This document shows, piece after piece, positions 40,993 to 52,759 of a stretch of 64,000 bases of DNA. The stretch comes from Ostreococcus lucimarinus (taxonomy: Eukaryota). Position 1 is the stretch's first letter; each line of letters starts with the position of its first letter. The position numbers and the translations under genes were made by a program. The notes under the pieces were generated by a model that was not told the origin of the DNA, did no database searches, and worked only from the letters and a program-made list of their open reading frames with translations. Location: the NCBI GenBank assembly GCA_000092065.1, contig CP000585.1; one strand, written 5' to 3'.

Positions 40993-42510
40993 TTACAACA
41001 TTGAATCCAAAGAATCGCTCATCGAGCGAACGCGCGATACGGAAGAGCGGAGACGCTTCGCCAAGCCCGCTCCGAACTCTACCAGCACGAAACCGCTCGC
41101 GCTGGCGATGATGGCAAATGCCCACGCCGTGCTCGCGGCCGGGTATCCGAGCTCGTGCACCAAGGAAGAACCGAATAACTGACCGAGCATTTCTCCAAAA
41201 AAGTAGCAGCTCACGAAAAGTCCGTTTGCTAAATCTGCGTACTTTGGTCCGTCGTTTCTGACAGACGCTTGCATCAAGGGCAAGAGCGGTACAAACGCAA
41301 AGGCGCTTCCGACCCCGTAAACAACGCTTGGAAACCACACGCAAAGCCGCCTTCGGGCCGTCGCACTCAGTGGATCAGGCAATCCTAGCAAAGACGAAGG
41401 GCCGAAGAAAAAGTGTGCGACTGACATGGACGCCATGCCGATGAGGCACAGTACGATGTCGCCCACTTTTGAGTTCGGAGTGTGCGAAACAATGCCAACG
41501 ATCGGCGTCACGAGCGCATACAGCCCAGCGAGTAACGAGTACACCAAGCCAATCGTAGCTGGTGAAAAGTTCAGCGTTTGATGAAGATATAGCGGAAGAG
41601 TGGTCGGAATCCCGCCGAAACTCGTGGACACGACAAGTTCGGCCAAGGCGGCGGCCAAGAAAGTCGGCCGACGAAGCACGCGAGCATAACTCGGCCTTTC
41701 CTCCTGCGAGGGCCCGGACATTTGACCACGGTCGTCGCGACCGTCGAGTCGACGCATCGCGTACATCACTGGAGGAATTGACAGCAAAATGGCGGCGCCG
41801 TTCGCCATCAGAGGTAACTTTGGCGACGAATGAATGTCGTACAAAAATCCACCGAAAATCGGCCCAAAGAGAGTCCCGAAGCCCGCGGCTACTTCTTGCA
41901 ACCCGCTTGTGATGCTCACCGCATCTGGCGCCGCTCGCGTCACCACGCACAGCATTGTCACGCTCGTCAACGCGTTGAAAAATCCCTGAAACAACCTACA
42001 CACCAACCAAACTCTCCAGCGCGCTCGTCCCGCGAACGCGCTCGTCGCCAATACGCACGCCGCCTGCCCCAAGAGCGAATATTTCGCCACCATCGTCGCG
42101 TCGAACCGCCACAGTACCCTCGGTGCGATCGTCGGCGACACCACGAGCACGCCGAACGGCAACGCCGCGAACGTCGCTCCCACCCGCGTCGCGTCGAGTC
42201 CCGCTCGCGCGAACTCTTGGCTCAGAAATGGAAACGGCACCGACATCGACATCGTCGTCACGACCAGCGACAGCGCGAACGCCCCGAGCACCCATCCGTG
42301 CTCGCGCACGACCTCCCTCGCGCTCGCGCGCCGCCCCGACGCGTCCAAGTCGTCGCGCGTTCCGTCTTCGCGAGGCGTCCCGAGCAACGGCGCCGTCCCG
42401 AGCTCGACGCTCCGCGCGTCGCGTTCCGAGTCGGACTCGCTCGAGCGATCGCGCGCGTCGTCGTCGTTTCCGTCGCCGTCGTCGTCGTCCGTCGCGCTCG
42501 CGCTCGACAT
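40993..42510 (-). CDS. Major facilitator superfamily transporter (12 predicted transmembrane helices)
   Basis: 505-aa model from the Met at 42510 (MSSASATDDDD). The body alternates hydrophobic helices with short loops (WVLGAFALSLVVTTMSM, FGVLVVSPTIA, LFGPIFGGFLYD, LLAGLYALVTPIVGIV, AFAIIASASGFVLVEF). The ORF track extends further 5' through Pro/Arg-rich sequence that I discount. Confidence 0.65.
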   Translation of the reverse strand: MSSASATDDDDGDGNDDDARDRSSESDSERDARSVELGTAPLLGTPREDGTRDDLDASGRRASAREVVREHGWVLGAFALSLVVTTMSMSVPFPFLSQEFARAGLDATRVGATFAALPFGVLVVSPTIAPRVLWRFDATMVAKYSLLGQAACVLATSAFAGRARWRVWLVCRLFQGFFNALTSVTMLCVVTRAAPDAVSITSGLQEVAAGFGTLFGPIFGGFLYDIHSSPKLPLMANGAAILLSIPPVMYAMRRLDGRDDRGQMSGPSQEERPSYARVLRRPTFLAAALAELVVSTSFGGIPTTLPLYLHQTLNFSPATIGLVYSLLAGLYALVTPIVGIVSHTPNSKVGDIVLCLIGMASMSVAHFFFGPSSLLGLPDPLSATARRRLCVWFPSVVYGVGSAFAFVPLLPLMQASVRNDGPKYADLANGLFVSCYFFGEMLGQLFGSSLVHELGYPAASTAWAFAIIASASGFVLVEFGAGLAKRLRSSVSRVRSMSDSLDSML

Positions 42511-42761
42511 CACGCGCCGGCGTCGCCGCGCATCGAGTCGTCGAGTGCCGCGACGGCATTGGTCGACGTCCGACGCGCGCGATGGCGACGACTCGATGCG
42601 CGACGACGGTGCGAAGCGCGACGTGCATCGCGCACGCGCGATTCGCTCGGTCGACGCGCGACGCGCGGTGCGCGACGGCGACGACGACGCGCGCGCGGTG
42701 TCCCGGTGGCGGCGGCGCGTTCGCTTTTTCGACGACGAATGCGACGCGTGCGACGCGCGTG

Positions 42762-43544
42762 ATGACGCGCGGGACGGAAGAGCGCGACGAAGGGTCGAGT
42801 TCGAACTGGGAAGATCTGTTCGAGCAGTTTGAACGGCAGAACGCGGACGCGGAGGCGGCGCAAGCGATCCCACGGCACAAGACGAGGGCGCTCGAGCGCG
42901 CGCTCGCGCGGGGACGGCGCAAGGTTGAGGTTCGAGAGCTGTGTCGCGAGCTGGAATTGGAGCGACACGAGGTTCTGGGATGGTTAAAGCGCAATGGACA
43001 TCGCGCCGAGACGCTCGCGAAGAAGTTTGCGGAAGAGTTAGTGCAGGAGGATGAGGCGGCGGCGGCGGCGGCGGCGGAGCGCGAGGCGCGCGCGCAAGCC
43101 AAGGCAAAGCGAGACGCGGCGGATGAGGCGAAGGGATCTGGAGCGCGCGGTCCGGGTGGGATGCCGGCGTATAAGTCGTACAAGAAGACGAGGTTGGGAT
43201 CGTCGAACGTGGCGACGCTGGAAAAGGTGTACGCCATGACGCAGTATCCCGACGACGCCCTGATCGAGAGCGTACGACAGGCAACCAAGCTGCCGGCGAG
43301 TAAGATTATCAACTGGTTTCAAGAACGCCGTCGAGGAGCGTCGCCGTCGGCGATGCGACGCGACCGTGACGTTGTGAATAGGCAGGTGGATCGGCGAGGG
43401 ACGACCGGCGGGTACTCGTACACGCGCCGAGATGAACGCGACGAAGGAAGAGGTCTCCGCAGAGGCGATGCTCGCGACGAGTACGGTGGAGGCGGTGGTG
43501 AGCGTCGCGGACGAGACGATGCTTCCGATTGGTCTCCGAATTAA
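42762..43544 (+). CDS. Homeobox-domain protein (atypical homeodomain)
   Basis: YKKTRLGSSNVATLEKVYAMTQYPDDALIESVRQATKLPASKIINWFQERRR has the homeodomain helix-3 signature WFQ.RR. The N-terminal region is acidic and the C-terminal tail is RGG-like. Start set at the Met at 42762, since the ORF upstream overlaps the MFS gene antisense. Confidence 0.55.
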   Translation: MTRGTEERDEGSSSNWEDLFEQFERQNADAEAAQAIPRHKTRALERALARGRRKVEVRELCRELELERHEVLGWLKRNGHRAETLAKKFAEELVQEDEAAAAAAAEREARAQAKAKRDAADEAKGSGARGPGGMPAYKSYKKTRLGSSNVATLEKVYAMTQYPDDALIESVRQATKLPASKIINWFQERRRGASPSAMRRDRDVVNRQVDRRGTTGGYSYTRRDERDEGRGLRRGDARDEYGGGGGERRGRDDASDWSPN

Positions 43545-43592: not shown

Positions 43593-45533
43593 TTACAACG
43601 TGTTAAAATCCTTCAAGCCGACGGCGGAAAATTCACCATCGTTGAATTCATCTTCATCGGTAGAGAGCAATCGAGGCGAACGATAAATTCGCATTCTTAA
43701 GTCTCGCGTGGTCTTCAATGCGCGAATCAAGGCGACGCTCGTGGCGAGCCAAAGGAGGAGGATGGCGACGAGGGCAATGGAGAGCGCAGTAGTGCTCGAT
43801 TCCGGTATGTAAGGTGTCTGTGACGCGCCCGTTCTCGCCGCGGTTCCAGCCAATTTGTTTGGACAGACATCCACGTCACGACGGAATATAGCCACATCGA
43901 CGGGCTCCATCGCCTGGGCGGAGATGTCTGGGATGGTGCGGCATGTGCTTGCCTCTCCAGTTCTTTCAAAGTACGTCTGCGCGCTCGTCGTGTTCGCTAC
44001 GCAAGTCGTTCGGCGCCACTCCCAGGTCGCGTGAGTGTCGTTATGAATCGTGAGCGAGCCCGCACCGAAAGAACCCTCCCTGAACGCGCTATACGACGGC
44101 TGAGGTTCCATCCAGGAATTACCGTACGGGCCTTCGTAATTTCCTCCGTCGCCGACGACGACGTGCACGGGACCGCACTCATGCACGTGAAAGTCGTGCA
44201 CCGGATGGGACCTTTCGTAGGCATGCACGTGGCCATTGAACACGAGATCAACGCCCGCGTCGAAAAGGATTTGCTCGAGCGCTTTTCTCATACGTTCAGC
44301 CTCTTTGAAGTGTCCTCGGTTGGAATTGTACCAAGGCGCGTGAAACACGACGACGACCCAAGGGGTATACTGCCGATTGATGGTGGCTAAATCTTTGCGT
44401 AACCACGCCATCTGAGGCGTATCAGCACCATCGTACACCCCAGTCTGCGAGTTGGCGTAGCTATTCAAACCAATGATGTGCGCCTGACCGACTTCGTGAG
44501 ACCAAAACAGTTGCGATGGACTCTTCGATGCTGTGTAAGGGGAGGGATATCGCGCCATGTAGGACACGAGATCCATTCCATTTTGCGCCACGTCGTGATT
44601 TCCAGGCACGGTCAACATCGGCATACCATCCAGCAAGAATTCGCTCAGGGTGCCGAAACTATCCCATCTTGGCGCGAAGCCATCCGCGTACGACACGTCT
44701 CCTGTGTGTATCAACAACTCTGAGTCCCCCAAAGCGTCTCGAACGTGCGTCAGCACCTCCCGCGTCACGTCCGTCTGACCCGTATCGCCCACAACGGCTA
44801 TTTTTGTCGTCTCCTTCCCGTGCTTCTTCGGCGTCTTCGGCGCCCTGAAGCTTCTCGTCGTCTCGCTCCCTGGCAGCGCGTACGAATACCGCTCTCCAGC
44901 CATCAATCCCGTCATCTTCGCCGTGTGCACGATCGGCGAGTGATACACGGCGTCGGGATTGGCGTAATCCAAACACACCCCCTTAGACATCGGCGCGTCC
45001 GTCCAGAAAGCGCTCGGAATCACATCCTCGAACGTCCGCACCGAGCGATAGTTTGAAGCGTCGGCGTCCGCCCACGCCGACGTGTTCGCCAACGTCATCA
45101 GCACCCCCGGATCCACCGCCGGTGTCGTTCCCATGCGCGGCACGAATGCCGTCGGCGATCCGACGCACAACTGCGTCGTGTACGACGCGCTCATCGCCTC
45201 CGCGCGTCGTCTTTGTCTCCCGTCGCTCGCGCTCGCGTAGTACTCCACCGCCGCGTCCTCGTCCAGCGCCTCGCGCGTCGCCCAAACCACGCTCATCTCG
45301 CCCGCGCCCGTCGGCGCCAAGTGCACCTGCGTCACCGCGTCCGCGTCCGCCGTCGCGCGTCCGCGCGTCGCGCGCAGCGGCACCGCGGGCGAAGCCTCGG
45401 GTCGTTGAAATCCCGACGTCATCGACCCCGCGTCCGCCATCGCGCGCGTCCACGCGCGCGCGAACGCCGCGGTCGCCATCGCGCCCGCGCTCGCGCGCCT
45501 CCACGCCGCGCGCGCGCCTCGACGTCGCCCCAT
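43593..45533 (-). CDS. Purple acid phosphatase-like metallophosphoesterase with C-terminal membrane anchor
   Basis: Metal-ligand motifs are present: GDTGQT, GDVSYADG, GNHD, VVFHAPWYNSN, GHVHAYER. A C-terminal hydrophobic segment ALSIALVAILLLWLATSVALI follows. The exact start is uncertain. Confidence 0.7.
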   Translation of the reverse strand: MGRRRGARAAWRRASAGAMATAAFARAWTRAMADAGSMTSGFQRPEASPAVPLRATRGRATADADAVTQVHLAPTGAGEMSVVWATREALDEDAAVEYYASASDGRQRRRAEAMSASYTTQLCVGSPTAFVPRMGTTPAVDPGVLMTLANTSAWADADASNYRSVRTFEDVIPSAFWTDAPMSKGVCLDYANPDAVYHSPIVHTAKMTGLMAGERYSYALPGSETTRSFRAPKTPKKHGKETTKIAVVGDTGQTDVTREVLTHVRDALGDSELLIHTGDVSYADGFAPRWDSFGTLSEFLLDGMPMLTVPGNHDVAQNGMDLVSYMARYPSPYTASKSPSQLFWSHEVGQAHIIGLNSYANSQTGVYDGADTPQMAWLRKDLATINRQYTPWVVVVFHAPWYNSNRGHFKEAERMRKALEQILFDAGVDLVFNGHVHAYERSHPVHDFHVHECGPVHVVVGDGGNYEGPYGNSWMEPQPSYSAFREGSFGAGSLTIHNDTHATWEWRRTTCVANTTSAQTYFERTGEASTCRTIPDISAQAMEPVDVAIFRRDVDVCPNKLAGTAARTGASQTPYIPESSTTALSIALVAILLLWLATSVALIRALKTTRDLRMRIYRSPRLLSTDEDEFNDGEFSAVGLKDFNTL

Positions 45534-45566: not shown

Positions 45567-46484
45567 ATGCGTCGCGTTTTCGCGTCATCCGCCGTCGCGT
45601 CGCGCCGCATGCCGCGCGTCACCGCCCGCGCGGCGACGCGCGCGCTCGCGTTCGTCTGCGTCCTTCTGACGCGAATCGCGCGCGCGCGCGCGAGCGATCG
45701 CGACTGGAGACGCTTTCGTTCGCCGCCGTTCGATGGACGACCGTGCACCGTCCCGCGCGCGTCGGTCGACGAGCTCTCGCTCGAGACGTTCGCGCGCACG
45801 TTCGAGAGCGCGGAGACGCCGGTGGTCGTCACCGGGCTCGGCGCGCGGCGAACGGGGTTCGTCGAGCGCGTCGAAAGAGGGGCGCTGCTTCGGGAGCTGG
45901 GCGCGGCGACGGTGACGCTGAGCAGCGCGAACGCGCACTCGCGCGGAAAACTTCGGAAGAGCCTGCGAGGATACGTCGAGGAGGACGTGGCGGCGAAGAG
46001 GAGAACGGATGGAAAGGAAGACGCGAGCGAGATATGGTACTGGTTCGGTGATCACGTGGAGAGCGATGGGACGATGTCGAACGGATTCGAGACGCTCTTC
46101 GGGGCGTACGACGATTTAGAATACGTCGGCGACGCGAACGTGGCGTATTCGTTCGGCGTGGGGGGACAGTTTAGCGGAGTGCCGATGCACACGCATGGGC
46201 CGGGGTGGTCGGAGAGTTTGATCGGGAGGAAGCATTGGTTCTTGGCGCCGCCGGACGCGACACCGAATTTCGATCCCAACGTGACGGCGTACGCGTGGGC
46301 GCTGGAGGCGCTGCGCCGGGGGGACGTGCGCGACGGTGAGGGTGGAATTTTAGAGTGCACGGTGAACGCAGGCGAATCGATTTACTTTCCACCGAATTGG
46401 TGGCACGCGACGGTGAATTTGGACGAGAGTGTCTTTATAAGTTCTTTCGTAAATTCAGTACAGCGCGCGCGCGATGAGTTGTGA
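45567..46484 (+). CDS. JmjC-domain (cupin) protein, JMJD8-like, with signal peptide
   Basis: The N-terminal hydrophobic segment ALAFVCVLLT precedes the JmjC core: HTHGPGWSESLIGRKHWFLAPP and YFPPNWWHATVNLDESVFISSF. Start at the Met at 45567; upstream ORF sequence is antisense to the PAP gene. Confidence 0.65.
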   Translation: MRRVFASSAVASRRMPRVTARAATRALAFVCVLLTRIARARASDRDWRRFRSPPFDGRPCTVPRASVDELSLETFARTFESAETPVVVTGLGARRTGFVERVERGALLRELGAATVTLSSANAHSRGKLRKSLRGYVEEDVAAKRRTDGKEDASEIWYWFGDHVESDGTMSNGFETLFGAYDDLEYVGDANVAYSFGVGGQFSGVPMHTHGPGWSESLIGRKHWFLAPPDATPNFDPNVTAYAWALEALRRGDVRDGEGGILECTVNAGESIYFPPNWWHATVNLDESVFISSFVNSVQRARDEL

Positions 46485-46502: not shown

Positions 46503-49223
46503 TTACTTTTCGGTGAGCTCGCGATAGCCTTTCCATGTCTTGGGCGCGATGAAGTCGTGCTTTTTCATCACCGCGAGTAAACTTTCGCTAGGGCCGTCGA
46601 GCGCTCGCTCGCCTTGCGCGGTGACGTACGTCCTCGTCGTGTGCAAGATTTCCTTCGCTTGAGACCATTCTCCGGCGACGTAATGACGTAAACCTCGCTT
46701 GAAATCTTGCAAAAAGTCCGCCGAAATACCCTCGCGCATTTTTAAAATATCTGGATGCTGCTTAAACTCGTCAGAGTATTCCATGAAGCTCAGCGTCTCT
46801 TCCTCAAACGTGCGATGTAAATTCACGTCGGCGGCGGGCGCCGCGATATTTTCTGGACGCACGTCAAAGGTGTAGAGCTCGACTGGATGCAGCGATCCCT
46901 TTACGGTGACGCAATCGATTTGCCTGCTTTCGTGTTGAACACTTGATGACAGCAAGGATGCGAATTGGCCGGTAAAGAGAAGCGGAACGCCGAATTGCTT
47001 CGTCGCTGCTTCGAGACGAGCGCTGATGTTGACATTCGGAGACAAGTACGAAGCATCCACCTTGTGCTCGCTCCCAATGGCGCCTTCGATCGCCCAACCC
47101 GCGTGAAGACCAAAACCCATCTTCACCTCGAAGTTCTTAATTCGCTCGTTCAGGGCCTCATTCCCGCGATACCGTTGTAACCGAGCGCTGCGCCGCAACG
47201 CTCCGATGATTGTGACGAATGAGGCGAGCGCGTTGTCGGCAATCATCTGAATCTTTCGACGTTTGTGTTCGTCTATATGCGCACAATTCGATATATCCGA
47301 TATATCCTCCGCAGAAATATCTTTAGGAAACTTCCACACCAATAAAAACGCATCGCCAATATTCTTATTCGCGCTCCCGCCGTGCACGTGTACTTCCACG
47401 TGCACAATCTTGGCGATCGTGTTCACAAACTCCATGATGTCCTCCTGTAACACCTCAGTCGTGTCCGTAAATTGCCGGATGTCACAAAACCCGAAAATAG
47501 CAACCATCTTTTTGCCAGGAATCATCGGATCAATCGCACCGCCGCGCTTCATGTTTTCAGCGATAATTTCGGAGCCCGCGTCACCGAATCCGACGGCGAG
47601 GAGAGAGCAAATGCGACAGATACTATTCTCTAGCAGTCGTGTCTCCATCTGATTATTTTCATCGCCACCGGTGATTTCAAATTGTGTCAGTGGATTCTCA
47701 CTCATCGCTTGAATCTTATTCACCATTCGGTCTAGTGGTCGGAGGACCAGAGCGTTGGTGTCTTTGCTGAACAGCACGGCGCCGATGGTGAGAATGAGGC
47801 ACACAAAAATTGTTCGCATGATGTTGAGCAAAGCCTGCAATTGACTCTCGCGCTGTCGATCGAAGAACGCGAAACTGAAACCACTAGGCACGTTTGCATC
47901 TGGTGTAGAAAACGTGGAGAATTCAAATTCGGTACAACGCAGTTTCTTATGCGCGTAACCGTCGAGTGCGAATGAGAGATTGCCATTGTTTGAGTAATCT
48001 GTGCCATTCACCACCAGTCGATACATTCCTTTAGTGCCGGCGTAGTATTGATTTAGCGACCGGTAAAATCCATCCGTTTCGTCGACGCTATTGATCAGGG
48101 TTTCATGCGCCATAGTGAGTCCGCCCTCTGCGAAATCCTGTCGCTCGCCGGCTGCGTACAAGCGGACATCAAACACTGGGAGCATGAAGAGCATGAGTAA
48201 AACGCCGATAATGACCCGTTTCGTCGTCAAATCGCCAAGCTTCTGCCCAACACGAGACTCAGACTGCTCAAAGTCCAACAAAGAATCTTCGTCTTCCTCT
48301 ACATACGCATTTACAGCGTTCTCGTCCATCCCTCCGACGACACTTTGCTTCACCAGACTATCGCGTTTGAGCTTGATCAAACTGTCGCGACGTTCGTTAC
48401 GCTCTCGATTGACTTCGTACGTTTTAAATATCTTCACCAATCGTATCAGGCGTATGATGCGAACGATGCGACCAGCTCGAGTTGCCGCGCGGGAAGCTCG
48501 ACCGGCTTTTGCAAATCCGGCGTCGGCGACGCCACTATCGCCGCCACCCGCGCCCGCCGTTCGAGTAGCTTCATCAAAGGTGGACCCATAAGAGTCGACA
48601 CCTTGACACGGATCCATACCAAGCGCTCGCATGAAAGCCGGAATGTCTGCGAGCAGACTTAACGTCGCCACAGAATCGAGCCAAAAGTAAAATCCTCCCG
48701 CATATTTTTCCAGGGCGAAGACGCTCAGCGCGAGTTCAATCGCGAAGCTCGCCAAGCACACCCACACCAGGACCAAAAACCCGAGATCTGCGTCTGCGTC
48801 GGTTGCGAACAAGCGCAAATCATCCCCGAAAAGGCTCCAAATCGTGATGTTTGCCATCCACATGGAGACGTGCCCGCTTTCGAGCGCCCCTCGAACGCGC
48901 CGCTTGAGCGCCTCGCCGCGCCAGCCCCTCTCGCCTTTCTCGAATTTGGTGCTCTTGCGGCCTTGCACAGTGGACGCGAAGCTCCTATCTCGCGCGGAGT
49001 CAAATATCCCGCTCGTTTTGCACGCATTTACTCCCTCACCACGCTCTTCATCCACGCTCTCACGTTCACCGCGCGATCGATATCTCGCATCGTTGGCGAT
49101 GTCCGCGTGGGCTTCCCCGAGCGTCGTCGAGTTTTGCACGAAGCACGACGCGCGGCGTCGCGCCTGCGTCTGCAAAGCCGCGCGCCTGGATGAATCGACT
49201 TTCTCTCCGTGTGCGTCAGCCAT
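46503..49223 (-). CDS. Fusion protein: N-terminal 6-TM voltage-sensor/ion-transport-like domain plus C-terminal class III adenylyl/guanylyl cyclase catalytic domain
   Basis: Hydrophobic segments S1-S3 (ITIWSLFGDDL, FLVLVWVCLASFAIELALSVF, FYFWLDSVATLSLLADIP). An S4-like helix has Arg/Lys at every third position: RAGRIVRIIRLIRLVKIFK. Later helices include IIGVLLMLFMLPVF and IMRTIFVCLILTIGAVLFS. The cyclase motifs follow: KMVAIFGFCDIRQFTD...IGDAFLLVWKFP and GLHAGWAIEGAIGSEHKVDASYLSPNVNISARLEAATKQFGVPLLFTGQF. Confidence 0.7.
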   Translation of the reverse strand: MADAHGEKVDSSRRAALQTQARRRASCFVQNSTTLGEAHADIANDARYRSRGERESVDEERGEGVNACKTSGIFDSARDRSFASTVQGRKSTKFEKGERGWRGEALKRRVRGALESGHVSMWMANITIWSLFGDDLRLFATDADADLGFLVLVWVCLASFAIELALSVFALEKYAGGFYFWLDSVATLSLLADIPAFMRALGMDPCQGVDSYGSTFDEATRTAGAGGGDSGVADAGFAKAGRASRAATRAGRIVRIIRLIRLVKIFKTYEVNRERNERRDSLIKLKRDSLVKQSVVGGMDENAVNAYVEEDEDSLLDFEQSESRVGQKLGDLTTKRVIIGVLLMLFMLPVFDVRLYAAGERQDFAEGGLTMAHETLINSVDETDGFYRSLNQYYAGTKGMYRLVVNGTDYSNNGNLSFALDGYAHKKLRCTEFEFSTFSTPDANVPSGFSFAFFDRQRESQLQALLNIMRTIFVCLILTIGAVLFSKDTNALVLRPLDRMVNKIQAMSENPLTQFEITGGDENNQMETRLLENSICRICSLLAVGFGDAGSEIIAENMKRGGAIDPMIPGKKMVAIFGFCDIRQFTDTTEVLQEDIMEFVNTIAKIVHVEVHVHGGSANKNIGDAFLLVWKFPKDISAEDISDISNCAHIDEHKRRKIQMIADNALASFVTIIGALRRSARLQRYRGNEALNERIKNFEVKMGFGLHAGWAIEGAIGSEHKVDASYLSPNVNISARLEAATKQFGVPLLFTGQFASLLSSSVQHESRQIDCVTVKGSLHPVELYTFDVRPENIAAPAADVNLHRTFEEETLSFMEYSDEFKQHPDILKMREGISADFLQDFKRGLRHYVAGEWSQAKEILHTTRTYVTAQGERALDGPSESLLAVMKKHDFIAPKTWKGYRELTEK

Positions 49224-49342
49224 CGCGCGACGCGCGCGCGAAGTGAGGCGCGCGAGCGTTTTTCTCTTCCGAAGAAATGGCGACTGTTCGTCTCCCCTTC
49301 TGCGGCGGTTCGATTGGGATTATATTACAACTGACGCGCGCG

Positions 49343-52300
49343 TCAGCGGGAGTCGGCGCAACACGCGAAACAAGCCATAGACGCCGCGCAACACGCTTTG
49401 TGATACGTGTGCGCGCACATAAAGGTGATGAGCTCGCCGTCGTTGGGGCACAGGAGGGAGTGACTACACGCGGGGCAGCGACGAAGATCCATCTTGATGC
49501 CCCAGTCGCCAAAATCTTCGATGGCGGGCGCGATTGGGTTCTCGTGAGGCACTTTCAGAGTAAATTGTGACACTCCGTCATCAGCATCGGTAGACGAGCG
49601 ACATACAAACGGTAATTGGTCCACGACACCGTCGATCTCCGCCGCGAGCGCGGCTTGGAGCTGTGGAAATCTTCCAAACTGCCGCATGGGTGGCCGCGAT
49701 AAGTGTGCGTCAAGTGGCTCGAGAAGCTTGGCAGCGCCACGGCGTAAGTCCAAATCCACAGAATTTTCGGAAGTCAAGAATGTGGTGACATTTGTGAAAA
49801 TACGACTGAGAGCTCTGGATATGGATTCGTTCGTGTTCATCGGTGATATCGCTTTCGACAACTTCTCCTCTTCTGAAGCCTTGGCAAGCGCTCGAATGAC
49901 TTCCGCCGCTCCAACTGCGGCGGAACCTACGCGCGAGACTAACATAAGATGCGATACGCCGTGCTCGAGAGCCGCAGATGTGTCAGCGCCGTCAAGCGAC
50001 TCTAAAGTCTGGAGAAGCGCCCGCCTAAGACATTCTGATACGATAGCCGACGCTTCTGCAACATCGGTTGATCGAAGCGATGCCACACATTCGGACTCCA
50101 AAGATTGACTCATATCAATCGCACCTCCTTCCGTCAACGCTGCAGTTACACTTGCCATTGTCATTGAGTCCGTCGAATGTTCCGCTGACGCGAGAGACGT
50201 TTGAGTCTCACGATTCTTTGGCGGCGTTTGCTTTTTCACCGCTGCGACGTCGAGCTTGAGTTCATCACACACTGCGTCAAGCTCTTTCTCAACGTTTTCT
50301 AACAGCGAACTCCATTGCAGTTTTATCTTAGCGGTGAGTGGTGCATCTTCGCCCTTTTCAAAGCGTGTCAGAAGTTCAATCGACTCGGCGCGTATATTGC
50401 GCCAACGCCGAAGCGAAGGCAGGAGAATCGACGCGTCGAGGCTCATTCGACACTCTTTAAGTTTCGTGACGGAGTCGACGATCGCGGCGACTCGTACATT
50501 CGTCATAAATCTGTACTGAATCCGAGCGTTTTGCTCGGGCAATGGAGTGTCAGTGGAGTCAAGTGTCGACGTCGTCTTAATGTCTTCGTAACAGCTCCAA
50601 TGCTCAAAATGCGCCCCTCGAATTGGGAGCAAACACTTCACGCTATCCATCGCCTTTTGCCACTCTTGAGCATCGAACGCGTCACACTCTTCCCATTCGA
50701 TGTCATTGTTTGGTAAATCAACCCCGTAATTCTTGGATTTTGTCGGCGAGACTACTTTCACGTTGCTTTGTAGTATGACTGCAGGCTCGTTTGATTCGAC
50801 ATCGTCCAGAATGAGCGCGTGTCGCTTCTTCACCTTTCCATTTGCCTTCGGCGCGAATTCTCCATCTACCTTGGATGTCTTGGAAACGCCACGAGGATTG
50901 TAAAAGAAGATGCCTCCTTCGGTTTCCGCCTTCGGGAACTCGTTCGAAGCTGGGGCAGCCAATTCGGACAATGGTCGATCAATCGTCGAACGATCTCTAC
51001 CGAGAGGTGGTTTTCCGAGATCGAAGTCCGGCGTCTTTGGTGCTTTCGGTGATGATACTTCTTCCTCGGTCACGAGCTCGCGCAGGTCAACTTCGGTGTC
51101 CTTCTTCGCCGGCGCCAACTTCGAGCCCACTTGTTCGCCCCATTGCACGAGAAACGCAAGCCTACTATTTACTCCGGCGGCGTCCGCTTCCGACGAATCC
51201 AACGCCTCTTTCGCCCTTCTGAATAAGCCGTCGTCGTACGAGTTTGTCTTGCGGCAAATGTCTAGGGCACGGATGAATGCACTTGCAGAGGATGTCTCGC
51301 TCACGACGTCATGCGCAAGCGCCTTGGCGTCGACGAATGATTCCAAACACCACACCGAATTCCCACTGTCTTCAGATGGCGTCAGGAAAAACGCTCGATG
51401 ATCAACTGTGCATGCATCGACGAAACCAGCGCTCAAACTTTCGCTCCCTGGCTCTTTTAGGGGATACCATCTAACGATTGCTGGAGTAGCGACGTCGATG
51501 ATGGCGACTGCGCGCTCCGTCGTCGACAACACGCAAGGTCCTAAACGATGCAAGAGGCCAAACTCTAGTTTCTTTGACGCGCGTTTCACCGCATCCGCGG
51601 ATTCACTCGATTGATCCCATCCTGGTACGCTGGAAGGCACTGGCACTTCGGGTTTGATGGTTGCCATGATTTCCACGTCGGCTCGCTCAGAGTCAACATT
51701 GTCCACTTTGGCAATCCACAGCTTACGCCCCGGTCGTGACACCACAGCATGCTCTACTACCCTCACACCTTCTAATTCTTCGTCCCATTCGTCTTCCTCT
51801 TCCACGGGATCGTCATCTTCTACGCTCAAACTTGCGTACCCGTGGAAGCAACTTCCGTACGATCCTTCGCGCTGCTTGCTACCTATATTCGACGTCGTTC
51901 CGCTATGCGCTCCCTGCACAATCACGAGTTGTGCGCTAGATTGTGCGCTTGTTATCACGTGACGACCGCTCGGTGACGCATCGAGCTGATGCACCGCACT
52001 ACTCACGTCTGTGTACGATGTCTTATTCACCGGCGCCGGTCTCGCGCCCGTGCGGCCACCGTCGCACCACTCCACGAACGCTGCGCACGACGTCACCGTC
52101 ACCACCCCTTGATCGCTTCCCGCATACAACACCCGCGAATCGCTCGACCACGACAGCGCCGTGACAGCTCGTCCTTCATGCGTGCTCGACAGAAACGCCA
52201 CCGTCGATCCCAGCGCGCTTCTCCGCGGCGCCTCCTCCCGCGTCAATCCATCGAGCTCAATCACCCTCACGTGTCCATCTGCGAACCCCAGCGCGCACAT

Positions 52301-52759
52301 TCGTCCGCATGGCGACGCTCTGATCGTCCGCACGCTCTGCGGCGCCGCGCGCGCGCCCACATTCCCCTGTCGTCTCGCGCTCGGCTCGACCAATTCCGGC
52401 GACACCACCGCGACGAATCTCGCGCGTCGTTCCACGCCTCCCGCGCCATCATCGCGCGCCCTCGATCGCGCGAACACGTACGCCGACCCAGTGTTCGCCC
52501 CCAAAATCACCAGCGCGCGCGTGGCATCGACGCACGTGAACCGAACGCGTTTAGAGCTCACGGCTCGCAAATCCGCGCTCGACGCCACGCAGCGCCATCG
52601 CGGCGCCATCGCGCCCGCATCGTCCCCCGAGCGCGTCGACGCGACGCTCGCATCGTCCGCGCGCGCGCGTTCGATCGCCGCCGCGTCTTCGTCCGGCATC
52701 GCGCCGCCGCGCGCGCGACTCTGCCGCGCTCCAATCGCCGCGCGTCGCGTTCGACGCAC
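49343..52759 (-). CDS. WD40 protein with C-terminal RING-H2-like zinc finger, Vps8/Vps41-like (CORVET/HOPS candidate)
   Basis: 1138-aa ORF. The N-terminal third has WD40-like strands (VRVIELDG, VTALSWSSDSRVLYAGSDQGVV). The C-terminus is CPACSHSLLCPNDGELITFMCAHTYHKACCAASMACFAC, a C-x2-C...C-x-H-x2-H...C-x2-C pattern. The middle is alpha-solenoid-like. Confidence 0.5.
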   Translation of the reverse strand: MRRTRRAAIGARQSRARGGAMPDEDAAAIERARADDASVASTRSGDDAGAMAPRWRCVASSADLRAVSSKRVRFTCVDATRALVILGANTGSAYVFARSRARDDGAGGVERRARFVAVVSPELVEPSARRQGNVGARAAPQSVRTIRASPCGRMCALGFADGHVRVIELDGLTREEAPRRSALGSTVAFLSSTHEGRAVTALSWSSDSRVLYAGSDQGVVTVTSCAAFVEWCDGGRTGARPAPVNKTSYTDVSSAVHQLDASPSGRHVITSAQSSAQLVIVQGAHSGTTSNIGSKQREGSYGSCFHGYASLSVEDDDPVEEEDEWDEELEGVRVVEHAVVSRPGRKLWIAKVDNVDSERADVEIMATIKPEVPVPSSVPGWDQSSESADAVKRASKKLEFGLLHRLGPCVLSTTERAVAIIDVATPAIVRWYPLKEPGSESLSAGFVDACTVDHRAFFLTPSEDSGNSVWCLESFVDAKALAHDVVSETSSASAFIRALDICRKTNSYDDGLFRRAKEALDSSEADAAGVNSRLAFLVQWGEQVGSKLAPAKKDTEVDLRELVTEEEVSSPKAPKTPDFDLGKPPLGRDRSTIDRPLSELAAPASNEFPKAETEGGIFFYNPRGVSKTSKVDGEFAPKANGKVKKRHALILDDVESNEPAVILQSNVKVVSPTKSKNYGVDLPNNDIEWEECDAFDAQEWQKAMDSVKCLLPIRGAHFEHWSCYEDIKTTSTLDSTDTPLPEQNARIQYRFMTNVRVAAIVDSVTKLKECRMSLDASILLPSLRRWRNIRAESIELLTRFEKGEDAPLTAKIKLQWSSLLENVEKELDAVCDELKLDVAAVKKQTPPKNRETQTSLASAEHSTDSMTMASVTAALTEGGAIDMSQSLESECVASLRSTDVAEASAIVSECLRRALLQTLESLDGADTSAALEHGVSHLMLVSRVGSAAVGAAEVIRALAKASEEEKLSKAISPMNTNESISRALSRIFTNVTTFLTSENSVDLDLRRGAAKLLEPLDAHLSRPPMRQFGRFPQLQAALAAEIDGVVDQLPFVCRSSTDADDGVSQFTLKVPHENPIAPAIEDFGDWGIKMDLRRCPACSHSLLCPNDGELITFMCAHTYHKACCAASMACFACCADSR

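What the first reader, a model, noticed from the sequence alone, without database searches (positions are those of the whole stretch)
46503..49223. Voltage-sensor/ion-channel-like 6-TM domain fused to a class III nucleotidyl cyclase
The N-terminal 450 aa contain six hydrophobic helices. One is an S4-like helix with positive charges at every third position (RAGRIVRIIRLIRLVKIFK). The C-terminal half has unmistakable class III cyclase catalytic motifs (VAIFGFCDIRQFT, IGDAFLLVW, GLHAGWAIEGAIGSEHK, NVNISARLE). Channel-cyclase fusions are known mainly from ciliates and apicomplexans (ACalpha). One in a green-lineage picoalga would imply membrane-potential-coupled cAMP/cGMP signalling and is worth documenting.
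Basis: partly seen in the sequence, partly recalled or inferred. Interest (0 to 1): 0.7.

Follow-up and report, generated by a model that had tools for sequence, protein, structure and literature searches.

The report
Voltage-sensor adenylyl cyclase of Ostreococcus
This gene of the tiny green alga Ostreococcus lucimarinus encodes a membrane protein that joins a channel-type voltage sensor to a cAMP-making enzyme; it belongs to a family already known from Paramecium, malaria parasites and water moulds, shows no recognisable ion pore, and is notable mainly because this alga has no flagella.

Summary
Window 46503-49223 (-) is one uninterrupted 906-aa ORF, and every quoted motif is present. It is 100% identical to XP_001418077.1 (OSTLU_31861) of Ostreococcus lucimarinus CCE9901.

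- **Layout:** disordered N-terminus, an S1-S4 voltage-sensor domain, TM5, a ~105-aa ectodomain, TM6, a helical linker, a class III cyclase domain, and a conserved C-terminal domain.
- **Voltage sensor:** seven in-phase R/K residues in S4 and an F160-x-x-E163 motif, conserved in 57 homologues. The best fold matches are the Ci-VSP sensor and Kv sensors.
- **Cyclase:** all six catalytic residues are present (D581, D624, K620, S725, N732, R736). This is the ATP-type class IIIb pattern.
- **Family:** it is a full-length homologue of the ciliate ACalpha-type cyclases (Paramecium, E 1e-141).
- **Not supported:** the "ion-channel" half. No P-loop lies between TM5 and TM6. Pfam Ion_trans and Kv structures match S1-S4 only. 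The GFG "pore" motif lies in a cytosolic helix just before the cyclase.

The most likely reading is a pore-less, voltage-regulated adenylyl cyclase that works as a homodimer.

Novelty is low. The family has at least 1379 clusters at 50% identity, and this protein is already listed in a 2025 paper's supplement. The modest interest is a supposedly "ciliary, protozoan" family found in a flagellum-less green alga.

The parts
46503..49223 (-). Complete CDS, 906 aa plus stop. It equals XP_001418077.1 / OSTLU_31861 / UniProt A4RXY6 of Ostreococcus lucimarinus CCE9901.
   Evidence: ORF list. 906/906 identity to P0086. Cluster names.
48936..49223 (-). N-terminal cytoplasmic tail, residues 1-96. Predicted disordered and poorly conserved.
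   Evidence: pLDDT 29-48. Identity to query 0.08-0.12 across 57 homologues.
48420..48875 (-). Voltage-sensor domain S1-S4, residues 117-268: S1 117-140, S2 143-170, S3 178-201, S4 242-267. Conserved acidic and aromatic residues are D135, D146, F160-x-x-E163, D183 and D193.
48423..48500 (-). S4 helix, residues 242-267, with nine basic residues. Seven lie in phase at every third position.
   Evidence: 6 of 20000 shuffles reach the run.
48255..48419 (-). Cytoplasmic S4 extension and acidic disordered loop, residues 269-323.
   Evidence: AF2: the S4 helix continues to residue 292, then pLDDT falls below 50 for 292-322.
48159..48254 (-). Conserved pre-TM5 amphipathic segment (SRVGxKLSDLTTRR) plus TM5, residues 324-355.
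   Evidence: Hydropathy peak 337-355. Helix 324-351. G326, L329 and R336 are at least 90% conserved.
47838..48158 (-). Extracellular alpha/beta domain between TM5 and TM6, residues 356-462. It carries two N-glycosylation sequons (N406, N415) and no K+ channel signature.
   Evidence: AF2 secondary structure, pLDDT 81-90. Sequons. No credible alignment to any pore region.
47766..47837 (-). TM6, residues 463-486.
   Evidence: Hydropathy peak 468-486. Helix 457-509.
47526..47765 (-). Cytoplasmic helical linker, residues 487-566: helix, variable acidic connector, helix. This is the region covered by Pfam PF26726 ('Helical_RasGEFs').
   Evidence: Alignment A3. A linker profile finds 118 fragments of 44-191 aa, and all carry PF26726. 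Family name. No hydrophobic segment here.
47574..47594 (-). VGFGDAG motif, residues 544-550. This is the 'GXG after TM6' that the literature reads as a pore loop. Here it lies in a predicted cytosolic helix about 20 residues before cyclase strand beta1.
   Evidence: G545 in 55/57, F546 in 53/57, G547 in 57/57. Helix 526-559, with a kink at G547 in the second model. PMC3283738.
46854..47525 (-). Class III (IIIb-type) cyclase homology domain, residues 567-790. Catalytic residues: D581 and D624 (metal), K620 and S725 (adenine), N732 and R736 (transition state).
46506..46826 (-). Conserved C-terminal alpha/beta domain, residues 800-906, of unknown role. Conserved residues include Y848, G851, W853, D876-G877-P878, W897 and R901.
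   Evidence: pLDDT 91-97. Conservation. No Pfam hit.

Best explanation
The gene encodes the Ostreococcus orthologue of the ACalpha-type 'voltage sensor plus cyclase' family.

**Topology (inferred from the model and the positive-inside rule)**
- The N-terminus is cytosolic.
- S1-S4 form a voltage-sensor domain.
- S4 continues as a long helix into the cytosol.
- TM5 and TM6 flank a folded ectodomain.
- TM6 continues into a helix-connector-helix linker (PF26726) that runs straight into the cyclase domain.

**Catalysis**
The cyclase carries all six catalytic residues on one chain, so it should act as a homodimer with two symmetric active sites that make cAMP from ATP.

**Proposed mechanism**
Changes in membrane potential move the S4 charges through the F160/E163 charge-transfer site. 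This motion passes through the S4 extension, the conserved pre-TM5 segment, and TM6 and its linker helices. It changes the relative position of the two catalytic domains and so the rate of cAMP synthesis. The protein would therefore work like a voltage-sensing enzyme (Ci-VSP, SLC9C1), not like a K+ channel.

**Shown versus inferred**
- Shown here: domain composition, conservation, fold similarity, catalytic completeness, homology, and orthology with synteny.
- Inferred: voltage dependence, its polarity, dimer formation, and the coupling path.
For: **Identity and architecture**
-.

**Voltage sensor**
- S4 charges and F-x-x-E are conserved in 52-57 of 57 sequences from green algae, ciliates, perkinsids, chromerids and oomycetes.
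- A family profile hits Shaker S2-S4 at E 4.7e-5, with F160/E163 aligned to Shaker's F-T-F-E-L motif.
- Ion_trans is found in 16 of 18 family members.

**Cyclase**
- The residue set is D/K/D/S/N/R in the query.
- S725 aligns to the Thr of bPAC's adenine pocket (alignment).

**No pore**
-.

**GFG motif is helical and cytosolic**
-.

**Homology to ciliate ACs**
-.

**Functional precedent in the family**
- Hyperpolarisation raises cAMP in Paramecium. PfACalpha has adenylyl cyclase activity, but channel activity of a recombinant protein has never been shown (PMC5746546; PMC10651576).

**Old, vertically inherited gene**
- The gene order V-ATPase H, HPS5-like, cyclase, Cupin_8, purple acid phosphatase, homeodomain, MFS is shared with O. 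tauri. The core of this order is shared with a relative at 50% identity.
Against: - There are no functional data for any green-algal member.
- The structure is a monomer prediction. The linker has only moderate confidence (pLDDT 62-76 in the full model, 42-56 in the TM-only model), so the helical state of the GFG motif is not secure.
- Purified native Paramecium cyclase was reported to carry a K+ conductance (Schultz 1992, cited). A pore-less model has to explain this by a contaminant, a partner protein, or leak through the sensor.
- The folded ectodomain suggests an additional or alternative input, such as a ligand.
- Whether the 1-um Ostreococcus cell uses fast membrane-potential signalling is unknown.
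Confidence: 0.7

Rival explanations
1. It is a true K+ channel/cyclase fusion, as first proposed for Paramecium and Plasmodium ACalpha. Four subunits would form a pore, and the conserved V-G-F-G-D motif after TM6 would act as the selectivity filter. Ion flux would control the cyclase.
For: The motif [VLI]-G-F-G-[ED] resembles the K+ signature T-V-G-Y/F-G-D and is nearly invariant. The literature reports an intrinsic K+ conductance of purified Paramecium cyclase and a GXG motif after TM6.
Against: - The motif is not flanked by membrane helices. Nothing hydrophobic lies between residues 494 and 658, and cyclase strand beta1 starts about 20 residues later.
- Both models predict it inside a cytosolic helix.
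- Pfam files this region as a helical domain, PF26726.
- There is no P-loop between TM5 and TM6. Ion_trans and Kv profile matches end at S4.
- Only the sensor superposes on Kv structures, and whole-subunit TM-scores are 0.2-0.35.
- Channel activity has never been confirmed with recombinant protein (PMC5746546).
- Class III cyclases work as dimers, which sits awkwardly with a four-fold pore.
Confidence: 0.12
2. It is mainly a receptor-type cyclase. The ectodomain between TM5 and TM6 would bind an extracellular ligand and signal through TM6 and the helical linker, as in bacterial sensor-TM-linker-cyclase or histidine-kinase proteins. The voltage sensor would be a modulator or a relic.
For: The ectodomain is folded and confidently predicted at about 105 aa (pLDDT 81-90), with a near-invariant Arg (R429). 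The TM-ectodomain-TM-helical-linker-output layout is that of bacterial receptors. Weak structural hits go to the WalK model (Foldseek E 0.18) and to the LapD-type periplasmic domain.
Against: - The ectodomain is the least conserved folded part (identity to query 0.22-0.28, against 0.73 for S4).
- Its length varies widely between lineages (alignment A2).
- The sensor's functional residues are under much stronger constraint, which argues against a relic.
- The structural hits are not significant.
- This rival is not exclusive with the best explanation.
Confidence: 0.12
3. It is a guanylyl cyclase, or a catalytically dead regulatory protein.
For: The UniProt name is 'Guanylate cyclase domain-containing protein'. 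Some family members lack catalytic residues (oomycete clade I-K-S-S-N-R).
Against: The query has the full D581/D624/K620/S725/N732/R736 set. A Lys at the purine-specifying position marks ATP use in class III enzymes (established knowledge of the class). The UniProt name simply repeats the Pfam family name. PfACalpha makes cAMP.
Confidence: 0.04
4. It is a gene-model artefact: two adjacent genes (a membrane protein and a cyclase) read as one ORF.
For: None beyond the general caution that ORFs run long in GC-rich DNA.
Against: The reading frame is uninterrupted, and conservation runs across the junction. The linker at 541-580 is among the most conserved parts (0.65-0.71). The same architecture appears in complete transcripts of other prasinophytes and in 57 aligned homologues from several supergroups.
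Confidence: 0.02

Closest known systems
ACalpha-type adenylyl cyclases of ciliates and apicomplexans (Paramecium AC1-4, Tetrahymena, Plasmodium/Toxoplasma ACalpha; Weber et al. 2004)
   Same: Same architecture and direct homology: S4 voltage sensor, two further TM helices, GXG motif after TM6, class IIIb catalytic domain and a conserved C-terminal domain. Paramecium gives E about 1e-141 with 39% identity.
   Different: Green-lineage host without cilia or flagella. Single copy, against 6-16 in ciliates. The sequence evidence here does not support the 'K+ channel' label attached to the family.
Phytophthora parasitica PPTG_13136 / PPTG_13761 'bimodal' VSD-cyclase proteins (PMC12223298)
   Same: Same family. 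That paper also found no pore-helix homology, and its supplement lists this Ostreococcus protein as a homologue.
   Different: The oomycete homologues sampled here (P0062-P0070) lack both metal-binding Asp residues (I-K-S-S-N-R), whereas the Ostreococcus enzyme is catalytically complete. The oomycete protein sits on a flagellum, and Ostreococcus has none.
Voltage-sensing enzymes and transporters without a pore: Ci-VSP phosphatase and the sperm Na+/H+ exchanger SLC9C1
   Different: The effector is unrelated (a cyclase). Two extra TM helices and an ectodomain lie between sensor and enzyme. This is an analogy of mechanism, not membership.
Voltage-gated K+ channels (Shaker/Kv)
   Same: The S2-S4 sequence is homologous (E 4.7e-5). 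The F-x-x-E charge-transfer motif and the arginine ladder are shared.
   Different: No S5-P-loop-S6 pore module and no selectivity filter within the membrane.
Class IIIb cyclases with solved structures (CyaC of Spirulina, CyaB of P. aeruginosa, bPAC/OaPAC)
   Different: Their regulatory modules are different: GAF/PAS, MASE or BLUF rather than a voltage sensor.

Membership tests
ACalpha-type voltage-sensor/cyclase fusion family | N-terminal S4-type voltage sensor and C-terminal class III cyclase on one polypeptide | tested here: met
ACalpha-type voltage-sensor/cyclase fusion family | Full-length sequence homology to ciliate or alveolate members | tested here: met
   Paramecium E about 1e-141. 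Perkinsus, Ichthyophthirius, Vitrella, Stylonychia ('adenylyl cyclase') and Blepharisma all match at E 1e-63 or better. Alignment A1.
ACalpha-type voltage-sensor/cyclase fusion family | Conserved GXG motif after the sixth TM helix | tested here: met
   V544-G-F-G-D-A-G550. G547 is invariant in 57/57. The feature is described in PMC3283738.
ACalpha-type voltage-sensor/cyclase fusion family | cAMP synthesis controlled by membrane potential or K+ conductance | not testable with these tools
   Needs electrophysiology together with a cAMP assay.
Voltage-gated K+ channel (6-TM Kv type) | S1-S4 sensor with an arginine ladder and a charge-transfer centre | tested here: met
Voltage-gated K+ channel (6-TM Kv type) | Pore module S5, P-helix with TxGYG filter, S6 | tested here: not met
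   - Ion_trans matches only positions 36-115 of 241, at 20 bits against a cut-off of 25. It also stops near position 115 in homologues.
- A 105-aa alpha/beta ectodomain lies between TM5 and TM6.
- Only about 130 residues superpose on Kv subunits.
- Foldseek gives no hit at E 0.001 or better.
Class IIIb adenylyl cyclase | Two metal-binding Asp residues | tested here: met
   D581 and D624.
Class IIIb adenylyl cyclase | Adenine-specifying Lys, with Thr/Ser in place of the class IIIa Asp | tested here: met
   K620 (54/57). S725 (51 Ser, 4 Thr) aligns to the bPAC Thr in the HMMER alignment.
Class IIIb adenylyl cyclase | Transition-state Asn and Arg | tested here: met
   N732 and R736.
Class IIIb adenylyl cyclase | Cyclase homology fold | tested here: met
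Class IIIb adenylyl cyclase | ATP to cAMP activity as a dimer | not testable with these tools
   Needs an enzyme assay. No multimer modelling was available.
HAMP domain (between TM6 and the cyclase) | Sequence match to the HAMP profile | tested here: not met
   13-14 bits against a cut-off of 25, and only in 1 of 18 family members. The linker profile finds no HAMP protein in the PDB at E up to 10.
HAMP domain (between TM6 and the cyclase) | Helix-connector-helix directly after a TM helix | tested here: inconclusive
   Two helices are predicted (487-509 and 526-559). The connector varies from about 10 to more than 40 residues between homologues.

The most novel reading that the evidence does not exclude
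The whole ACalpha-type family, including this green-algal member, may not be a channel family at all. It may be an ancient and widespread eukaryotic class of pore-less voltage-sensing enzymes that turn membrane potential into cAMP, and that work outside cilia. The evidence for the last point is its retention as a single, catalytically complete, syntenic gene in the flagellum-less, minimal-genome picoalga Ostreococcus. In such a cell it could report depolarisation caused by nutrient transport, by light, or by virus-encoded K+ channels.
Probability: 0.35. Interest if true: 0.6.

Novelty: new member of a known kind. Interest (0 to 1): 0.35.

Why it matters
**What it does not change.** The protein family has been known since 2004. 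This gene is in GenBank and UniProt, and it is listed in a 2025 supplement as a family member.

**What it adds.**
1. [quoted passage not shown] Another paper states that class III cyclases are absent from Ostreococcus (PMC5508029). A conserved, syntenic, catalytically intact copy in the flagellum-less Ostreococcus, with homologues in Pyramimonas, Pterosperma and the streptophyte Mesostigma, contradicts all three statements. It shows that the green lineage kept a voltage-to-cAMP device.
2. The sequence and fold evidence collected here favours a pore-less voltage-sensing enzyme over the textbook 'K+ channel/cyclase fusion'. That matters for how Plasmodium and Toxoplasma ACalpha are interpreted.
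3. Ostreococcus tauri is genetically tractable and appears to have a single copy. It would therefore be a simple system for testing the mechanism.

Tried and rejected
- **NCBIfam scan:** no hit. This is expected for a eukaryotic protein.
- **HAMP assignment of the linker:** rejected on sequence grounds.
- **K+ pore between TM5 and TM6, or at the GFG motif:** rejected.
- **Recent horizontal transfer, suggested by the gene's low GC (0.53):** rejected. Its GC3 of 0.60 lies within the window's gene range of 0.57-0.79. The gene is syntenic with O. tauri and a more distant relative. Green-lineage sequences form one clade in a rough NJ tree (no support values).
- **The afdb50 fold library:** not available.
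- **Weber et al. 2004:** not held in the library, so its claims are cited second-hand.
- **Searching for RasGEF proteins that share the linker module (PF26726 'Helical_RasGEFs'):** returned only short fragments of this same family. The RasGEF link rests on the Pfam name alone.
- **Naming the 50-55% identical marine relatives (Micromonas or Bathycoccus?):** failed, because the clusters carry no organism names.
Full report
**1. The observation**

Window 46503-49223 on the minus strand is one uninterrupted ORF of 906 codons, ATG to stop.

The S4-like helix has seven basic residues in phase at every third position: R249, R252, R255, R258, R261, K264 and K267. R242 and R245 lie just upstream. Only 6 of 20000 shuffles of the protein reach a run of seven. 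The protein is 100% identical (906/906) to XP_001418077.1, also known as OSTLU_31861 and UniProt A4RXY6. This is a 'predicted protein' of Ostreococcus lucimarinus CCE9901.

**2. Anatomy**

Hydropathy and an AlphaFold2 model built on a 57-sequence alignment (mean pLDDT 78.3) give the following layout:

| Residues | Feature |
|---|---|
| 1-96 | Disordered N-terminus |
| 97-114 | Amphipathic pre-S1 helix |
| 117-140 | S1 |
| 143-170 | S2 |
| 178-201 | S3 |
| 232-292 | S4, one long helix that runs into the cytosol |
| 292-322 | Disordered acidic loop |
| 324-355 | Conserved pre-TM5 segment and TM5 |
| 356-462 | Alpha/beta ectodomain with two N-glycosylation sequons |
| 463-486 | TM6, continuing as a helix to residue 509 |
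| about 510-525 | Variable acidic connector |
| 526-559 | Second helix, containing V544-G-F-G-D-A-G550 |
| 567-790 | Cyclase domain |
| 800-906 | Well-predicted, conserved C-terminal domain |

With the cyclase in the cytosol, the positive-inside pattern and the sequons are consistent with this topology. That last point is an inference.

**3. The voltage sensor is real**

- Across 57 homologues, S2 keeps F160 (56/57) and E163 (57/57) in the F-x-x-E spacing of the Kv charge-transfer centre.
- D135 and D146 are invariant. D183 (55/57) and D193 (53/57) are nearly so.
- Every S4 basic position is held in at least 50 of 57 sequences.
- Pfam Ion_trans matches the query below threshold (20-22 bits against a cut-off of 25). 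It matches 16 of 18 family members (best E 6e-11) and passes threshold in Mesostigma and Phytophthora.
- A profile of residues 97-565 finds Shaker in the PDB at E 4.7e-5. It aligns S2, S3 and S4, with F160/E163 on Shaker's F-T-F-E-L motif.

**4. There is no recognisable pore**

- The Ion_trans match always ends near profile position 115 of 241, which is after S4.
- The Shaker alignment ends at S4. The one alignment that runs over a Kv2.1 pore is a gap-filled artefact.
- Foldseek finds nothing at E 0.001 or better. Whole-subunit TM-scores are 0.2-0.35 at 16-17 A rmsd.
- A folded 105-aa domain lies between TM5 and TM6, not a re-entrant loop.

The literature places the family's putative pore after TM6, at a GXG motif (PMC3283738). 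The motif is present and nearly invariant here (G545 55/57, F546 53/57, G547 57/57). However, several points count against it as a pore:

- It lies in a non-hydrophobic stretch.
- It is about 20 residues before cyclase strand beta1.
- It sits inside a predicted helix, or at a helix-kink-helix.
- A linker-only profile retrieves 118 protein fragments of 44-191 aa that all carry Pfam PF26726. This shows that PF26726, named 'Helical_RasGEFs', covers this linker.

I therefore read the motif as part of a cytosolic transducer helix. It may be comparable to the transducer element that precedes other class III catalytic domains. That comparison is from my own knowledge and was not tested. A HAMP assignment fails on sequence.

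**5. The cyclase**

The query has both metal Asp residues (D581, D624), the adenine-specifying K620, the transition-state pair N732/R736, and S725. S725 falls at the position of the bPAC Thr, according to the HMMER alignment. This is the ATP-type class IIIb pattern.

Because one chain holds all six residues, a homodimer with two active sites is expected. This follows from established knowledge of class III cyclases.

**6. Family and distribution**

The full-length protein finds 82 relatives:

- Ostreococcus-like sequences at 61-99% identity, including O. tauri XP_003079495.2, which is named 'Adenylyl cyclase class-3/4/guanylyl cyclase'.
- Pyramimonas, Pterosperma and Mesostigma.
- Paramecium (E about 1e-141), Ichthyophthirius, Stylonychia ('adenylyl cyclase'), Blepharisma, Perkinsus and Vitrella.
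- Many oomycetes.

An exhaustive profile search with the TM region alone finds 1379 clusters at 50% identity with E 1e-30 or better, so the family is large. In a rough NJ tree the green-lineage sequences form one clade (no support values).

The gene order around the cyclase is shared with O. tauri: PPR/CBS, V-ATPase H, HPS5-like propeller, cyclase, Cupin_8, purple acid phosphatase, homeodomain, MFS. The core of this order is shared with a relative at 50% identity. The gene's GC3 is within the local range. It is therefore an old resident gene, not a recent transfer.

**7. What is already known**

- The architecture was described in 2004 for Paramecium, Tetrahymena and Plasmodium (Weber et al., cited).
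- Adenylyl cyclase activity of PfACalpha is confirmed. Channel activity of recombinant protein is not (PMC5746546).
- A 2025 study of Phytophthora zoospores described the same 'bimodal' family, noted the lack of pore-helix homology, and localised one member to a flagellum.
[quoted passage not shown] Its own Supplementary Dataset 2 lists this very protein, a Bathycoccus protein and a Coccomyxa protein, and its Supplementary Fig. 4c counts one per green alga.
- 'Algal AC-like sequences' of O. tauri were also mentioned in 2016.
- A 2025 review still calls the dual-function cyclases protozoan-restricted.
- A 2017 paper says class III cyclases are absent from Ostreococcus, which it also describes as lacking flagella.

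**8. Verdict**

The homology call (ACalpha) is right. The 'ion channel' half is not supported, and the novelty claim is overstated.

The best-supported model is a pore-less, voltage-regulated, homodimeric adenylyl cyclase. It would work like Ci-VSP or SLC9C1 while being a true member of the ACalpha family. The residual interest is threefold. A supposedly ciliary, protozoan family is conserved in a flagellum-less minimal green alga. The evidence weighs against the long-standing channel label. And Ostreococcus offers a single-copy, tractable test system.

Noticed in passing
Alignment A1 (homologues P0062-P0070 and P0071-P0075), not in the window: Family members fall into complementary catalytic types. 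The oomycete clade has I-K-S-S-N-R: both metal Asp residues are lost, while Lys, Ser, Asn and Arg are kept. Another clade has D-K-D-T-N-F: the Asp residues are kept and the Arg is lost. This resembles the C2-like and C1-like halves of heterodimeric cyclases and suggests obligate heterodimers in some stramenopiles. All green-lineage sequences keep the full D-K-D-S-N-R set.
   Followed up: partly
window 47526-47765 (-), residues 487-566: All 82 full-length hits and 118 linker fragments carry the precomputed Pfam family PF26726, named 'Helical_RasGEFs'. The local Pfam copy does not hold this model. Whether the same helical module really occurs in RasGEF proteins could not be checked.
   Followed up: partly
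window 40993-43544: The 763-aa minus-strand ORF 40993-43284 is over-extended. Its MFS domain covers only residues 337-701. Its 5' part overlaps a plus-strand homeodomain gene inside ORF 42123-43544 (Homeodomain E 3.8e-9). This matches the O. tauri gene order phosphatase, homeodomain, MFS.
   Followed up: yes
whole window, 1-64000: GC content is mosaic, from 0.51 to 0.69 per 2 kb. Gene GC3 ranges from 0.57 to 0.79. The cyclase (0.60) and its HPS5-like neighbour (0.60) are at the low end, next to genes at 0.78-0.79. No cause was established.
   Followed up: partly
window 49343-52759 (-): The upstream neighbour is a 1138-aa protein with an HPS5-type beta-propeller (E 9e-30) and a Cys/His-rich C-terminus that looks RING-like. 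It sits beside the cyclase in O. tauri and in a more distant relative as well.
   Followed up: no
window 43593-45533 (-) and 45570-46484 (+): The downstream neighbours are a purple acid phosphatase with a C-terminal hydrophobic anchor and a Cupin_8/JmjC-like protein. The intergenic gap between the cupin stop (46484) and the cyclase stop (46503) is only 18 bp, so the two genes converge.
   Followed up: no
literature (PMC12223298, PMC5508029, PMC12414865): Published statements conflict with the data. The family is said to be restricted to Stramenopiles and Alveolates and to flagellated organisms, yet the same paper's supplement lists Ostreococcus and Bathycoccus. Class III cyclases are said to be absent from Ostreococcus.
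   Followed up: yes
window 46503-49223, both strands: Several ORFs of 90-180 aa overlap the cyclase CDS in other frames (for example 47263-47652 +, 48091-48591 +, 48844-49380 +). They are by-products of the GC-rich sequence. None was examined further.
   Followed up: no
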